A stretch of 64,000 nt of DNA, taken from assembly GCA_001784155.1 (NCBI GenBank), contig MFPL01000002.1:34012-98011 (forward strand), written 5' to 3'. Both the position numbers and the translations under genes were made by a program. The notes below the pieces were generated by a model. It saw only the letters and a list, made by a program, of their open reading frames with translations, ran no database searches and was not told the DNA's origin. Of the stretch, positions 54,638 to 57,248 are shown piece after piece. Each line of letters starts with the position of its first letter. Positions within the stretch are counted from its first letter, which is position 1. This DNA comes from Candidatus Levybacteria bacterium RIFCSPLOWO2_12_FULL_41_12. GTDB lineage: Bacteria; Patescibacteriota; Microgenomatia; Levybacterales; UBA12049.

Positions 54638-55648
54638 TCAACCTTGAAGCAATTTTATTGCTTGGCCTGTTTTGTAACTTTTCGCGTGTTTTAAATAACC
54701 AAGATATGACTGGATAGTCTGATTTAGCGAAAAATCAGAGATTCTCCCTGTTTTGTATTCATCAAGCTTATCTGATATCTTTCTAAACATCCTTTTCTTT
54801 GTTTTTGTTCTTGGCAAAACGTAGTGGGGAAGTATGACGTAACCTAAAAAATCAACTCCCCATGAAAGTCTTCTCATAATAATCTTGCCTGGATTAAGTC
54901 TCAGCTTAAGATTTTCTTCCAAGAAGACTGGTATACTAGTATACCAGTCTAATAATCTACTCCTATTGGATTCTAAAATTAAAAAGTCATCAGCGTAACG
55001 CAGGTAATATTTCACTCTTAGACTCTGCTTTATAAATTGGTCCAGTTCGTTTAAGTAAATATTTGCAAAAATCTGACTTGTCAGATTGCCAAGAGGAATT
55101 CCTTTCCCTCTTCCTTGTTCCACGCTAAAACTTTGAATAACTTCTTTTAAAAGCCAGAGAATATCTTCATCTTCTATTCTCTTTTTTAGAAGTTCGAACA
55201 AAATCTTATGATCAACATTTGCAAAGAATTTTTTAATATCAAGTTTTAGAGCAAAGCAGTTTCTTGTATAATTCTTGCTCACTTTTCTCGCAAATAACTC
55301 AAGCCTTTCAACTCCTTTATGCGTTCCTTTATCTAAACGACAAGAATATGAATCATAAATAAAACTTTTATCAAAGACAGAATATAAATATTTATATAAA
55401 AGGTGATGTAAAACCCTATCCGAAACACAGGCTTTATGGATGTGCCGTCTTTTCGGATCGTTAACGAAGAATTCCTCGTATTTTCCATGTTGGTAAGTTT
55501 TGTTTTTCAAAGACAAGTGCAGAGAGAACAAATTGTCTTCCAAATTCCGCTCGAAAACTTGTAAATCCAATCTCTTCTTCTTTCCTTTTTTAAATTCAGA
55601 AAAGGCTTGAAAAAGATTTTCTATTTGTATAAGATCTTCATAGTTCAT
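54638..55648 (-). CDS. DGR-type reverse transcriptase
   Basis: Start at ATG 55648 (MNYEDLIQ...). Motifs DSYSCRLDKGTHKG (DGR-like SxxxRxxKGTH), GIPLGNLTSQIFANIYLNELD (LGNLTSQ replaces the usual QG...SP, a DGR hallmark), and YADDFLIL (YxDD). The listed 373-aa ORF start is an artefact of reading through the upstream (CA)n tract. Confidence 0.9.
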   Translation of the reverse strand: MNYEDLIQIENLFQAFSEFKKGKKKRLDLQVFERNLEDNLFSLHLSLKNKTYQHGKYEEFFVNDPKRRHIHKACVSDRVLHHLLYKYLYSVFDKSFIYDSYSCRLDKGTHKGVERLELFARKVSKNYTRNCFALKLDIKKFFANVDHKILFELLKKRIEDEDILWLLKEVIQSFSVEQGRGKGIPLGNLTSQIFANIYLNELDQFIKQSLRVKYYLRYADDFLILESNRSRLLDWYTSIPVFLEENLKLRLNPGKIIMRRLSWGVDFLGYVILPHYVLPRTKTKKRMFRKISDKLDEYKTGRISDFSLNQTIQSYLGYLKHAKSYKTGQAIKLLQG

Positions 55649-55672
55649 ATGAGTAACATCAATAAACCTGTT

Positions 55673-55698
55673 CACACACACACACATACACACACACC
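55673..55698. repeat. Dinucleotide microsatellite (CA)7-TA-(CA)5, 25 nt upstream of the RT start
   Basis: Direct reading: cacacacacacacatacacacacacc. It lies between TR and RT, flanked by the GC-rich inverted repeat GCCCGCC...GGCGGGC at 55711-55747. Confidence 0.8.
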
Positions 55699-55737
55699 GA
55701 TAGTAATTTAGCCCGCCTGCCAGCACCTGACCGCAGG

Positions 55738-56088
55738 GATGGCGGGCAGGATATCCCAATCTTTACCAAGCTCTACGAATTTTATAAAACGCTTAGCTCA
55801 ATTATTCCATCTTTCCCTAAGACAAAACGCTACACGCTAGGTCAAAAGTTGGATAACACAACCTTGGACATACTCGAATTCTTGTTTGCAATACCGTTAA
55901 GCAGTAATAAGCTGATTATCCTTCAAAAAATAAGCGTAAAAGTCGATTTATTAAAAATTCTAATCCGTCTCTCTAAAGACACCCAGATAATTAATAACAA
56001 AGACTGCTTAGAGCTTGAAACAAAACTTTCTGAAATAGGCAAAATGCTTGGAGGATGGATCAGAGCCTCCAAGCAAAATACCACTTAA
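55738..56088 (+). CDS. Avd-like (accessory variability determinant, four-helix-bundle) protein encoded antisense to the DGR, with no canonical in-frame start
   Basis: C-terminus LSEIGKMLGGWIRASKQ closely parallels BPP-1 Avd's AEVGRILGSWIARVNRK. Upstream block IPSFPKTKRYTLGQKL resembles the PF05635-family N-terminal region. The open frame extends to 55738 with no ATG/GTG. The nearest ATG (55739) is in a different frame, and the track's TTG at 55849 would truncate the fold. Confidence 0.55.
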   Translation, partial: DGGQDIPIFTKLYEFYKTLSSIIPSFPKTKRYTLGQKLDNTTLDILEFLFAIPLSSNKLIILQKISVKVDLLKILIRLSKDTQIINNKDCLELETKLSEIGKMLGGWIRASKQNTT

Positions 56089-56104
56089 AAAACTTCTTCT
56101 ACTA

Positions 56105-56220
56105 GAAACTATCAAGCGAACCGCATGAACATTGTCATTGCCGTTATCAGGCTTAAAGTCATTGACATTCAAACCGTTATCGGGATTCGCATTGCCGACA
56201 ATCGCAGCATTAGAACCCAC
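56105..56220 (-). repeat. DGR template repeat (TR)
   Basis: Core 56113-56217 matches VR 56547-56651 at 85/105 positions. TR coding (minus) strand is adenine-rich with AAC codons (translates GSNAAIVGNANPDNGLNVNDFKPDNGNDNVHAVRLIV). Shared 3' IMH-like end GCGGTTCGCTTG. Confidence 0.88.
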
Positions 56221-56519
56221 ATTTTGTGCATATCCCTTCGTTAACAGAACCTCACCAAAGATTTCTGTAAAGATCTCTTTTGAATTTTATCCGTCTCGCC
56301 AAAAACGGCGGAGCGAAAAAAGATATACGTAGTGTCTAGTAAATTTTTCTTTAAGTACTCTCCCTCACTATGTATAGTGAGGGACTCTGACTATTGAAAG
56401 ATCCTAGAAATAGGCGGTACGGCTTAAATCAAACCGGACTCATTGCGCTATTGCGAATAATTGTAGCAAAAAAATCGGAGAACCAAAATACAAGAAGTCC
56501 AAAATTACCAAGAGGACAA

Positions 56520-57248
56520 CTACTTATTTCCGTGGTTAGGCACTACCAAGCGAACCGCAAGAACACCGCCACCGCCGCCACCAGGCCCAAAGCCACGGAC
56601 ATCCAAACCGTCATCGGGATGCGCACGGCCGACAACCGCAGCATTAGAACCGGATTTAGTCGTTGGATTTTTTGTTCTTCCGTACCGATAGCCGTAATCT
56701 GGTCCAAATAACCATTCTCCTGTTTGATCTAAATAGTCAAAAGTAATTCCTGTAAGAGTCGATGCCTCGTTTGGAATTCTAACATCTACTCCAGATAATC
56801 CTAATCTTTCTCTTAAAGTCTCTCCGTCTCTACTGACCATCCTCTCCTGCGTAGCTAAATCTTTACCGCCTGTGCCGGGAATAAAGAATCTGTCCGGATC
56901 GGGATAAATTGCTACTTCAGCAAGACTTGAAGGGACATTAAGAAGTCCGTCTTCCGCATTAGCAACAAAATAAAACGAGGGTTTTTCTTTTTGTCTTTGG
57001 GCTTCTCTTTGTGAGGGAATAGTCTGATCGAGGGGCTTTAAAATAATTGCCCCGTCTTTTGATAAAGCGCGCTTTTCTACGGCAGTAAACTTATCGGCTT
57101 TCCCAACCTGTTCACGTCTTGGAAGAGGGACATCTTTCCCTCTAGCTTTATGCATTGCAGCAATTACATCCGCTCTTTCTGCGTCGCGGGGATCGTTTGT
57201 TACTCTAAGTTTTCTTTCGACCCATTCCATTCCCATATGAACGAACAA
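56520..57248 (-). CDS. DGR target protein (variable C-terminal ligand-binding domain, probable C-type-lectin/FGE-like fold)
   Basis: C-terminus ...GSNAAVVGRAHPDDGLDVRGFGPGGGGGGVLAVRLVVPNHGNK is the VR-encoded region. It ends with the xVRLVx-like segment typical of CLec-fold DGR targets. No obvious signal peptide. Confidence 0.8.
   Translation of the reverse strand: MFVHMGMEWVERKLRVTNDPRDAERADVIAAMHKARGKDVPLPRREQVGKADKFTAVEKRALSKDGAIILKPLDQTIPSQREAQRQKEKPSFYFVANAEDGLLNVPSSLAEVAIYPDPDRFFIPGTGGKDLATQERMVSRDGETLRERLGLSGVDVRIPNEASTLTGITFDYLDQTGEWLFGPDYGYRYGRTKNPTTKSGSNAAVVGRAHPDDGLDVRGFGPGGGGGGVLAVRLVVPNHGNK
56540..56655 (-). repeat. DGR variable repeat (VR) at the 3' end of the target gene
   Basis: Of the 20 mismatches to TR, 16 are A-to-G, 3 are A-to-C and 1 is A-to-T on the coding strand. 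Six TR adenines are unchanged. No non-adenine position differs within the 105-bp core. Confidence 0.88.

What the first reader, a model, noticed from the sequence alone, without database searches (positions are those of the whole stretch)
55738..56088. Avd-like accessory gene encoded antisense inside the TR-RT spacer, with no canonical start codon
The plus-strand reading frame 55738-56088 encodes a four-helix-bundle Avd-like protein. Its C-terminus LSEIGKMLGGWIRASKQ parallels BPP-1 Avd's AEVGRILGSWIARVNRK. It lies on the opposite strand to the TR, VR, RT and target gene, entirely within the TR-RT spacer. In characterised DGRs this spacer is part of the functional sense-strand DGR RNA. The open frame has no ATG or GTG. 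The nearest ATG (55739) is +1 out of frame, next to a GGCGGGCAGG run. The only candidate start, TTG at 55849, would remove the first helix. Possible explanations are a decaying avd, a frameshift needing correction, non-canonical initiation, or a real antisense arrangement in which avd expression and DGR RNA production interfere.
Basis: partly seen in the sequence, partly recalled or inferred. Interest (0 to 1): 0.55.

Follow-up and report, generated by a model that had tools for sequence, protein, structure and literature searches.

The report
Repeat-switched Avd gene in a DGR
The "start-less" gene is a genuine DGR accessory gene (avd) knocked out of frame by one extra CA unit in a short repeat, and similar repeats at the same spot in many related bacteria suggest a stochastic on/off switch for targeted hypermutation.

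Summary
The plus-strand frame ending at 56088 encodes a true DGR Avd (Pfam bAvd 63 bits; NCBIfam DivGenRetAVD 83.8 bits; predicted four-helix bundle matching BPP-1 Avd). It lies antisense between TR (56217-56103) and RT (55648-54638) and has no in-frame ATG or GTG.

Neither feature is a mystery. The antisense layout is the published "B3, TR-(avd)-RT" architecture of CPR DGRs, and all 77 related loci with a detectable RT share it. The start codon exists: ATG 55649, back-to-back with the RT start. A (CA)7 tract (55673-55686) puts it out of frame.

Near-identical assemblies of the same Levybacteria strain carry (CA)6 (145 aa, in frame), (CA)9 (147 aa, in frame, most contigs) or (CA)7 (out of frame). 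One VR allele occurs with all three lengths.

Across 78 species-level loci, 29 have a repeat ((CA)n, poly-C, (AG)n or (CAGGA)n) between the avd ATG and the conserved core. Of these, 10 are in frame and 19 are not, yet every core is intact and under purifying selection. All 49 repeat-free loci are in frame. Another 11 loci carry (AG)n inside RT instead.

Best reading: slipped-strand phase variation of Avd, with this window in the OFF state. I found no published report of this.

The parts
55649..55651 (+). True avd start codon (ATG). It abuts the RT start codon on the other strand (CAT|ATG at 55646-55651).
   Evidence: Sibling assemblies L001-L003 and L088-L096 translate from this ATG into 145- or 147-aa Avd proteins.
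55673..55697 (+). Simple-sequence repeat (CA)7-T-(AC)5. The (CA)7 part, 55673-55686, is the variable tract. Seven units put ATG 55649 out of frame with the Avd core (OFF).
   Evidence: It is the only non-A/T repeat in the 64-kb window. The same strain carries (CA)6, (CA)7 and (CA)9. In frame, the tract encodes the His-Thr repeat seen in homologues.
55709..55711 (+). Premature TAG. It ends the 20-codon ORF that starts at ATG 55649 in this (CA)7 allele.
   Evidence: Translation; ORF length of 60 nt.
55666..56088 (+). Open avd reading frame without a start codon. It comprises the N-terminal linker, the four-helix-bundle core (from DIPIF at 55750) and the TAA stop at 56086-56088.
   Evidence: PF22296 at 63 bits; NF033474 at 83.8 bits; AF2 model plus Foldseek hits to 4dwl and 8ub7.
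55607..55635 (+). Candidate avd promoter (TTGAAA-17 nt-TAAGAT) lying inside the RT 5' coding region. Inferred only.
   Evidence: Consensus scan. The number of sites found was not above the shuffled expectation. A similar TTGAAA...ATAAG motif is visible in relatives but overlaps conserved RT codons.
54638..55648 (-). DGR reverse transcriptase gene, divergent from avd.
   Evidence: RVT_1 E=5.6e-22. It contains the GIPLGNLTSQ motif. An RT is divergent from and adjacent to avd in all 77 related loci with a detectable RT.
56103..56217 (-). Template repeat (TR). Its 3' end lies 15 nt from the avd stop codon.
   Evidence: 115-nt repeat with VR at 80% identity; 21 of 23 mismatches are at TR adenines.
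56537..56651 (-). Variable repeat (VR) at the 3' end of the target gene.
   Evidence: At least 7 different VR alleles occur among near-identical assemblies of the same strain, differing at TR-adenine positions.
56520..57248 (-). DGR target gene (no Pfam or NCBIfam hit).
   Evidence: ORF; its C-terminus carries the VR; two searches found no family match.
56046..56074 (-). 9-bp hairpin (GCUUGGAGG / CCUCCAAGC, 11-nt loop) on the RT-sense strand. It starts about 30 nt downstream of TR and is built from the avd codons for MLGG and ASKQ. It may be the 3' structure or terminator of the TR RNA. Inferred only.
   Evidence: 9 of 9 positions pair in the window and 8 clade relatives, with GGAGG/CCUCC, GGUGG/CCACC and GGUGG/CCGCC variants; shifted-register controls pair 1-5 of 9. 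RNA fold z=-2.4.

Best explanation
The locus is a chromosomal diversity-generating retroelement of a CPR bacterium (Candidatus Levybacteria). It has the family-typical order target/VR - TR - (avd, reverse strand) - RT.

avd is translated from ATG 55649 through a (CA)n tract and a disordered linker that tolerates length changes, into the four-helix-bundle core. Slipped-strand mispairing changes the number of CA units. Six or nine units keep the frame (ON). Seven units, as in this window, shift it, and translation stops after 20 codons (OFF).

In the studied BPP-1 DGR, Avd is required with the RT for cDNA synthesis. By inference, an OFF allele freezes the current VR sequence, and reverting to an in-frame length re-arms mutagenesis. 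The switch would make targeted hypermutation itself phase-variable.

Shown here: the identity of avd, the architecture, the repeat-length polymorphism in one genetic background, its effect on reading frame, and the family-wide pattern. Inferred: high-frequency reversibility, loss of Avd protein in OFF alleles, and loss of DGR activity.
For: 1. Same strain, different tract lengths. The window and L084/L087 have (CA)7. L001-L003 have (CA)6. L088-L096 have (CA)9, and the index lists that protein in 58 blocks of the collection (24 contigs read). Apart from the tract, the window and L001 differ over 9.2 kb only by 2 SNPs and 16 VR substitutions. VR allele 1 occurs with 6, 7 and 9 units.

2. A second species shows the same thing. 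L004/L086 are in frame, while L085 has one CA unit fewer and is out of frame, at 99.9% identity.

3. Clusters at 90% identity hold variants differing by exactly one or two His-Thr units (145/147, 132/134, 143/145, 139/141/143 aa), plus truncated ORF calls. A poly-C cluster behaves alike. A repeat-free cluster has 8 members, all 128 aa.

4. In 78 species-level loci, repeats are 43 times denser in the 100 nt upstream of the avd core than elsewhere (4.0 versus 0.09 per kb). Four unrelated motifs occupy this position: (CA)n, C7-11, (AG)12 and (CAGGA)9.

5. Every repeat locus has an ATG 3-34 nt upstream whose frame stays open through the repeat. Ten are in frame and 19 are out, with frame offsets 10/6/13, not different from uniform. 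All 49 repeat-free loci are in frame (Fisher p=3e-11).

6. All 19 out-of-frame cores are full length (109-124 aa), with dN/dS of 0.04-0.36 in the 25 least-diverged pairs. All that could be checked keep TR/VR pairs with adenine-specific mismatches.

7. Residues 1-32 of the in-frame protein are predicted disordered.

8. Eleven other loci carry (AG)n inside RT, just upstream of GIPIGNLTSQ. Three are in frame and 8 are out, and none of them also has an avd repeat.
Against: - No read-level data were available, so heterogeneity within one population and the switching rate are unknown. Differences between assemblies could be fixed differences between sub-strains.
- Six to nine dinucleotide units is short for a classical contingency tract.
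- For this species, most assemblies are ON. The OFF allele could be a mildly deleterious slip rather than a used switch.
- The roughly one-third in-frame fraction across species is also what neutral drift of tract length would give. The argument against drift rests on intact cores and low dN/dS, which average over past history.
- Translation of OFF alleles from a near-cognate codon, or by transcriptional or ribosomal slippage, was not excluded.
- The requirement of Avd for RT activity is known only from BPP-1.
- Paul et al. 2017 (CPR DGR survey) could not be read, so prior mention of the repeats cannot be ruled out.
Confidence: 0.75

Rival explanations
1. Sequencing or assembly error: the true genome has an in-frame tract, and the extra CA unit is an artefact of assembling a repeat.
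For: Repeats are error-prone. The difference is a single unit. Most assemblies of this strain are in frame.
Against: At least two further independent assemblies, L084 (JGI) and L087 (NCBI GCA_001782395.1), also have (CA)7. Four more similar places with the same truncated ORF call were not shown. Alleles differ by up to three units (6, 7, 9). A 14-nt dinucleotide tract lies well within read length. The same pattern recurs in 19 other species with different motifs.
Confidence: 0.05
2. Decaying pseudogene: the DGR is dying in this lineage and the frameshift is the first lesion.
For: The frame is broken. Nineteen of 29 repeat-bearing relatives are also out of frame.
Against: There are no other lesions. 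The core is identical to the ON alleles of the same strain. VR still differs between near-identical genomes, so the DGR was recently active. All 19 out-of-frame cores in relatives are intact, with dN/dS of 0.04-0.36. RT and TR are intact.
Confidence: 0.07
3. Avd is still made from the (CA)7 allele. Possible routes are initiation at a near-cognate codon downstream of the repeat (for example ATC 55759, 7 nt after AGGA) or transcriptional or ribosomal slippage on the repeat. The repeat would then tune expression level rather than switch it.
For: The avd frame is open from 55666. An AGGA motif precedes in-frame ATC codons. Poly-C and dinucleotide tracts can provoke polymerase slippage (general knowledge).
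Against: All 49 repeat-free relatives use an ordinary ATG (one uses GTG) a few codons before the core. Every out-of-frame locus retains an ATG upstream of the repeat that stays open through it. There is no canonical slippery heptamer in the tract.
Confidence: 0.1
4. The repeat acts mainly on the other strand, as (UG)n or poly-G in the 5' leader or promoter of RT or in the DGR RNA. The effect on the avd frame would then be incidental.
For: The tract lies 25-50 nt upstream of the RT start codon. A DNA motif after the tract (CCGATAGTA or CCTATAGTA) is kept in two different avd reading frames, as ...HTPIV... and ...HTDSN.... This suggests a constraint at the nucleotide level.
Against: Forty-nine relatives lack any repeat there, so it is not an essential RNA element. 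The motifs are unrelated on the RT-sense strand ((UG)n, poly-G, (CU)n, (UCCUG)n). This model does not explain the ATG upstream of each repeat. It also does not explain the (AG)n repeats inside the RT ORF of other loci.
Confidence: 0.03

Closest known systems
BPP-1 (Bordetella phage) DGR accessory protein Avd (Bbp7; PDB 4dwl, 8ub7)
   Same: Same family by profile (PF22296, NF033474). Same four-helix-bundle fold (TM 0.91). Same conserved C-terminal GxxLGxW motif. Encoded next to a DGR RT and a TR/VR pair with adenine-specific differences.
   Different: About 17% sequence identity. It has an extra disordered N-terminal extension carrying a His-Thr repeat. The gene is on the opposite strand, between TR and RT, rather than upstream of TR on the same strand. 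In this window it is out of frame.
DGR architecture B3, 'TR-(avd)-RT', of CPR bacteria (Wu et al. 2018, NAR 46:11, PMC5758913)
   Same: Identical gene order and orientation. The host is a CPR bacterium. TR lies 0-60 nt beyond the avd stop in about 68 relatives checked.
   Different: Searches of that paper's text for 'simple repeat', 'frameshift', 'frame shift' and 'start codon' found no mention of repeats or frameshifts in avd or RT. It treats its reference DGRs as putatively functional.
Translational phase variation by simple-sequence repeats in 5' coding regions (contingency loci of Haemophilus, Neisseria, Campylobacter, Helicobacter)
   Same: A short repeat lies between the start codon and the essential part of the protein. 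Unit-number polymorphism toggles the frame. Repeat motifs contain no stop codon in any frame. The in-frame fraction across genomes is about one third.
   Different: Known cases mostly control surface structures or restriction-modification systems in host-associated pathogens. Here the switched gene is a component of a mutagenesis machine in groundwater CPR bacteria. Switching rates and reversibility have not been measured.
Divergent hifA/hifB fimbrial promoters of Haemophilus influenzae with a (TA)n tract (from general knowledge, not tested here)
   Same: A dinucleotide repeat sits between two divergently transcribed genes and acts as an ON/OFF switch.
   Different: There the repeat alters the spacing between the -35 and -10 promoter elements. 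Here it lies inside the avd ORF and alters the reading frame.

Membership tests
DGR Avd (Pfam PF22296 bAvd / NCBIfam NF033474 DivGenRetAVD) | Sequence profile match above the curated cut-off | tested here: met
   PF22296 scored 63 bits against a cut-off of 40 on the window frame. NF033474 (equivalog) scored 83.8 bits against a cut-off of 80 on the in-frame sibling allele, which is identical in the core.
DGR Avd (Pfam PF22296 bAvd / NCBIfam NF033474 DivGenRetAVD) | Four-helix-bundle fold like BPP-1 Avd | tested here: met
   The AF2 model has helices at 34-54, 57-83, 87-110 and 116-142, with core pLDDT >90. Foldseek hits: 4dwl_D TM 0.91 and rmsd 1.4 A; 8ub7 Avd chains TM 0.81-0.87.
DGR Avd (Pfam PF22296 bAvd / NCBIfam NF033474 DivGenRetAVD) | Encoded within a DGR cassette (RT plus a TR/VR pair with adenine-specific mismatches) | tested here: met
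DGR Avd (Pfam PF22296 bAvd / NCBIfam NF033474 DivGenRetAVD) | Intact, translatable ORF | tested here: not met
   In this window ATG 55649 is out of frame with the core because of the (CA)7 tract. The feature is met in the (CA)6 and (CA)9 alleles of the same strain.
DGR Avd (Pfam PF22296 bAvd / NCBIfam NF033474 DivGenRetAVD) | Forms a pentamer that binds the RT and is required for cDNA synthesis | not testable with these tools
   Known for BPP-1 only. It would need biochemistry.
DGR cassette architecture B3, TR-(avd)-RT (Wu et al. 2018) | Order TR, avd, RT, with avd on the reverse strand relative to TR and RT | tested here: met
   In the window: TR 56217-56103 (-), avd 55649-56088 (+), RT 55648-54638 (-). 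The same layout is found in the 77 relatives with a detectable RT (RT orientation) and in about 68 relatives (TR position). The definition is quoted.
Repeat-mediated translational phase-variable gene (contingency locus) | Simple-sequence repeat inside the ORF, between the start codon and the functional domain | tested here: met
   The (CA)7 tract at 55673-55686 starts 24 nt after the first base of ATG 55649. The full repeat (55673-55697) ends 52 nt before the core.
Repeat-mediated translational phase-variable gene (contingency locus) | Repeat-number polymorphism among otherwise near-identical genomes that toggles the reading frame | tested here: met
   6, 7 and 9 units occur in the same strain, and on the same VR allele. 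A second species differs by one unit.
Repeat-mediated translational phase-variable gene (contingency locus) | Repeats enriched at this site relative to the background | tested here: met
   4.0 versus 0.09 per kb over 78 loci. It is the only non-A/T repeat in the 64-kb window.
Repeat-mediated translational phase-variable gene (contingency locus) | High-frequency, reversible switching within a clonal population | not testable with these tools
   Needs raw reads or culture. Only consensus assemblies were available.
Repeat-mediated translational phase-variable gene (contingency locus) | ON/OFF change in protein level and phenotype | not testable with these tools
   Needs a reporter, proteomics or a retrohoming assay.
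Pseudogene | Accumulated disabling mutations and relaxed selection | tested here: not met
   There is a single lesion, confined to the repeat. Cores of all 19 out-of-frame relatives are intact, with dN/dS of 0.04-0.36.

The most novel reading that the evidence does not exclude
Many CPR (Patescibacteria) DGRs carry a built-in stochastic switch. A hypermutable repeat sits at the 5' end of avd (29 of 78 species-level loci) or in a loop of the RT just before the GIPIGNLTSQ motif (11 of 78). It flips the retroelement between active and silent states. Lineages could then alternate between exploring target-protein variants and locking in a useful one. This would be a mutational switch placed on top of a mutagenesis system, and I found no report of it in the searchable literature.
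Probability: 0.6. Interest if true: 0.85.

Novelty: new variant of a known kind. Interest (0 to 1): 0.72.

Why it matters
How DGR mutagenesis is restrained is an open question, because continued hypermutation would erase a beneficial variant. A repeat-based on/off switch in an essential DGR component gives a concrete mechanism that can be tested from sequence alone. It appears to have arisen repeatedly, with different repeat motifs and in two different genes, in the bacterial group where DGRs are most common.

There is also a practical point for annotation. avd or RT genes that look truncated or start-less in CPR genomes are likely to be OFF-phase alleles, not dead genes or errors. Surveys that discard them will undercount functional DGRs.

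Existing groundwater time-series metagenomes could test the idea directly, by relating tract length to VR diversity.

Tried and rejected
- **Indel in GGCGGGCAGG (55741-55750) bringing ATG 55739 into frame.** Rejected. That stretch is identical in all sibling assemblies that make full-length Avd.
- **Conserved RNA structure on the RT-sense strand, antisense to the avd 3' half.** I tested this as a possible DGR-RNA spacer. RNAalifold on 69 loci predicted no pairs. Only a clade-specific 9-bp hairpin emerged.
- **Promoter and terminator scan of 55300-56600.** Three promoter-like sites were found against 3.1 expected, and no terminators. It is not informative on its own.
- **Literature.** Searches for DGR together with phase variation, simple-sequence repeats or frameshift found nothing relevant. 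The most relevant survey, Paul et al. 2017 (Nat Microbiol), is not held.
- **Mismatch repair in Patescibacteria.** One search gave nothing usable.
- **Target protein.** No Pfam or NCBIfam match.

Full report
**What is at the coordinates**

The minus strand of 54.6-57.3 kb carries a complete diversity-generating retroelement (DGR).
- The target gene is 57248-56520. Its last 115 nt, 56651-56537, form the variable repeat (VR).
- The template repeat (TR) is 56217-56103. It is 80% identical to VR, and 21 of 23 mismatches fall at TR adenines.
- The reverse transcriptase gene is 55648-54638 (RVT_1, E=5.6e-22, with the GIPLGNLTSQ motif).

Between TR and RT, on the plus strand, a frame is open from 55666 to the TAA at 56086-56088. 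Several lines of evidence identify it as Avd.
- It matches Pfam bAvd over almost the whole profile (63 bits, cut-off 40).
- The in-frame sibling allele passes the NCBIfam equivalog DivGenRetAVD (83.8 bits, cut-off 80).
- An AlphaFold model gives four helices with core pLDDT above 90.
- Foldseek returns BPP-1 Avd (4dwl, TM 0.91, rmsd 1.4 A) and the Avd chains of the DGR ribonucleoprotein 8ub7 among the top hits.
- A PDB profile search aligns the C-terminal eiGkmlGGWi with EVGRILGSWI of 4dwl.

The frame has no in-frame ATG or GTG. The first canonical in-frame start is TTG 55849, and ATG 55739 is out of frame.

**The antisense position is the family norm**

I scanned one genome per species with an alignment of Avd homologues and kept 80 loci, nearly all from Patescibacteria/CPR lineages.
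- In all 77 loci where an RT was detectable, the RT is on the opposite strand. Its start lies 17-120 nt upstream of the conserved Avd core.
- In about 68 loci, TR lies roughly 0-60 nt beyond the avd stop on the RT strand, with adenine-specific mismatches to a VR.

This is the 'B3, TR-(avd)-RT' architecture of Wu et al. 2018. They report that it accounts for 90% of CPR DGRs and is nearly absent elsewhere (PMC5758913). The arrangement is real but already described.

**Where the start codon went**

The best database homologue, P0001, is 100% identical over the query and 145 aa long. It begins MSNINKPVHTHTYTHTDSNLARLPAPDRRDGGQDIPIF.

Three independent assemblies encode it (L001-L003). They are identical to the window around the start except for one CA unit. 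They have (CA)6 where the window has (CA)7 at 55673-55686.

The real start is ATG 55649, directly abutting the RT start on the other strand (CAT|ATG). With seven units, the ATG frame runs 20 codons to TAG 55709-55711. With six units, it reads straight into the Avd core.

**The tract varies within one strain**

Over 9.2 kb, L001 and the window differ only by two SNPs, the CA unit and 16 substitutions inside VR. Other assemblies of the same strain show the following.
- L084 (JGI) has the SNPs and VR of L001 but the (CA)7 of the window.
- L087 (NCBI GCA_001782395.1) has (CA)7 with the L001 VR.
- Nine further places carry (CA)9 and a 147-aa Avd. The index lists that protein in 58 blocks of the collection, and 24 contigs were read. 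Together these nine carry at least six different VR alleles.

The tract lengths 6, 7 and 9 therefore coexist. One VR allele is found with all three lengths. VR itself has diversified between genomes that are otherwise almost identical, so the DGR has been active recently. In this species the in-frame alleles dominate, and the window carries a minority OFF allele.

A second species shows the same behaviour. L004/L086 are in frame, while L085 has one CA unit fewer and is out of frame, at 99.9% identity.

**The pattern across the family**

In 78 species-level loci with enough upstream sequence, 30 have a non-A/T simple-sequence repeat within 100 nt upstream of the Avd core. The density there is 4.0 per kb, against 0.09 per kb in the remaining 527 kb. 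In the window this is the only such repeat in 64 kb.

The motifs differ between lineages: (CA)5-18, C7-11, (AG)12 and (CAGGA)9. In one of the 30 loci (L051) the repeat lies just upstream of the ATG, outside the ORF. The other 29 behave as follows.
- Each has an ATG 3-34 nt upstream of the repeat whose frame stays open through the repeat.
- In 10 loci that ATG is in frame with the core. In 19 it is not. The frame offsets are 10/6/13, indistinguishable from uniform.
- All 49 repeat-free loci have an ordinary in-frame start a few codons before the core (Fisher p=3e-11).

The 19 out-of-frame genes are not decaying. Every core is full length (109-124 aa). In the 25 least-diverged pairs among them, dN/dS is 0.04-0.36.

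Protein clusters at 90% identity tell the same story. Repeat-bearing clusters contain variants differing by exactly one or two His-Thr units, plus truncated ORF calls. A poly-C cluster contains MPPPPQ..., MNFLTCPPPQ... and truncated forms. A repeat-free cluster has eight members, all 128 aa.

The N-terminal 32 residues that hold the repeat are predicted disordered. This explains why length changes are tolerated.

**Mechanism proposed**

These are the standard signatures of translational phase variation by slipped-strand mispairing:
- a mutable repeat between the start codon and the essential domain;
- unit-number polymorphism in one genetic background that toggles the frame;
- convergent use of different stop-free motifs at the same position;
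- roughly one third of genomes in frame;
- purifying selection on the switched gene.

I therefore read the window as the OFF phase of a phase-variable avd.

In BPP-1, Avd is needed together with the RT for cDNA synthesis (established knowledge from that system). An OFF allele should therefore silence mutagenic retrohoming and freeze VR. Slipping back to an in-frame length would re-arm it.

The steps not shown here are the switching rate and its reversibility, the absence of Avd protein from OFF alleles, and the dependence of this RT on Avd.

**Rivals**

- Assembly error is unlikely. The (CA)7 allele recurs in independent assemblies, and alleles differ by up to three units.
- Pseudogenisation is contradicted by the intact cores and by ON alleles in the same strain.
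- Leaky expression through a near-cognate start or through slippage cannot be excluded. It would turn an on/off switch into a dimmer.
- A function of the repeat on the RT-sense strand is possible as an additional layer. A motif after the tract (CCGATAGTA or CCTATAGTA) is kept in two different avd reading frames. This model does not explain the frame statistics or the repeats inside RT.

**Transcription and the 'spacer' question**

A consensus promoter-like site (TTGAAA-17 nt-TAAGAT, 55607-55635) lies just upstream of ATG 55649, inside RT codons. Such sites are not above chance in this region.

No structure conserved across the family was found on the RT-sense strand opposite the avd 3' half.

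In the window's clade, however, the avd codons for MLGG and ASKQ form a 9-bp hairpin on the RT-sense strand (56046-56054 with 56066-56074). It starts about 30 nt after TR. It is fully paired in nine loci, with GGAGG/CCUCC, GGUGG/CCACC and GGUGG/CCGCC variants, and the RNA fold has z=-2.4.

Parcubacteria-type relatives instead have a GC-rich hairpin followed by a T run between TR and the avd stop. The TR RNA may therefore end shortly after TR rather than run antisense through the whole of avd. It remains untested.

**Novelty**

Avd, the B3 architecture and repeat-driven phase variation are each known. Their combination, a repeat switch on an essential DGR component that recurs across CPR lineages, did not appear in any paper I could search. 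The CPR survey of Paul et al. 2017 could not be read. I class the finding as a new variant of a known kind.

Noticed in passing
Loci L027, L035, L039, L046, L050, L052, L068, L070, L072, L076, L077 (about 570-650 nt upstream of the avd core, inside RT): Eleven mostly Parcubacteria-type DGRs carry an (AG)5-35 repeat inside the RT ORF, immediately upstream of the conserved GIPIGNLTSQ motif. RT is in frame across the repeat in 3 loci and frame-shifted in 8. None of these loci has a repeat in avd. This suggests the same kind of switch placed on RT instead.
   Followed up: partly
Loci L036, L044, L045, L048, L049, L061, L066 (about 50-110 nt beyond the RT 3' end): Tetranucleotide or other repeats lie just downstream of RT: (ATCT)8, (CCAA)10, (TCCA)5-8, (CT)7 and G8. 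In some loci they sit between RT and a convergent target gene. Their function is unknown.
   Followed up: no
window 56046-56074 (minus strand): A 9-bp hairpin on the RT-sense strand is formed by the avd codons for MLGG and ASKQ. It is conserved with pair changes in the Levybacteria-like clade. It may explain why the tail residues K-Q are nearly invariant, and it may mark the 3' end of the TR RNA.
   Followed up: partly
Loci L030, L036, L037, L039, L044, L046, L048-L053, L065, L071, L072 and others, between TR and the avd stop: A GC-rich stem-loop flanked by an A run and a T run lies between the 3' end of TR and the avd stop. It looks like a bidirectional terminator for the converging TR and avd transcripts.
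   Followed up: no
window 56537-56651 and the same region in L001, L087-L096: At least seven distinct VR alleles occur among assemblies that are otherwise about 99.98% identical. All variable positions correspond to TR adenines. This is direct evidence of recent DGR activity in the population.
   Followed up: yes
window 55698-55707 and the equivalent position in L004, L005, L010, L011, L014, L016, L018, L022: A DNA motif, CCGATAGTA or CCTATAGTA, follows the CA tract. It is retained in two different avd reading frames (...HTPIV... versus ...HTDSN...). This points to a nucleotide-level constraint, perhaps a -10-like TACTAT for RT on the other strand.
   Followed up: no
window 56371-56394: An 11-bp near-perfect inverted repeat (TCCCTCACTAT-GT-ATAGTGAGGGA) lies in the ~300-nt spacer between the target gene stop and TR. 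Its role is unknown. It could be a terminator of the target gene or an element of the TR promoter region.
   Followed up: no
Proteins P0033/P0135, P0139/P0146, P0093/P0163/P0164: Within single 90% clusters, full-length Avd variants use different start codons in two different frames upstream of the repeat, for example MQIKIQIRTFTHTHT... versus MHTDKDTNKDIHTHTHT.... In some loci, two of the three repeat phases may therefore be ON.
   Followed up: partly
Locus L093 (488-1393): In one (CA)9 assembly of the same strain, the RT gene was called at 301 aa instead of 336. This hints at a separate change near the RT start.
   Followed up: no
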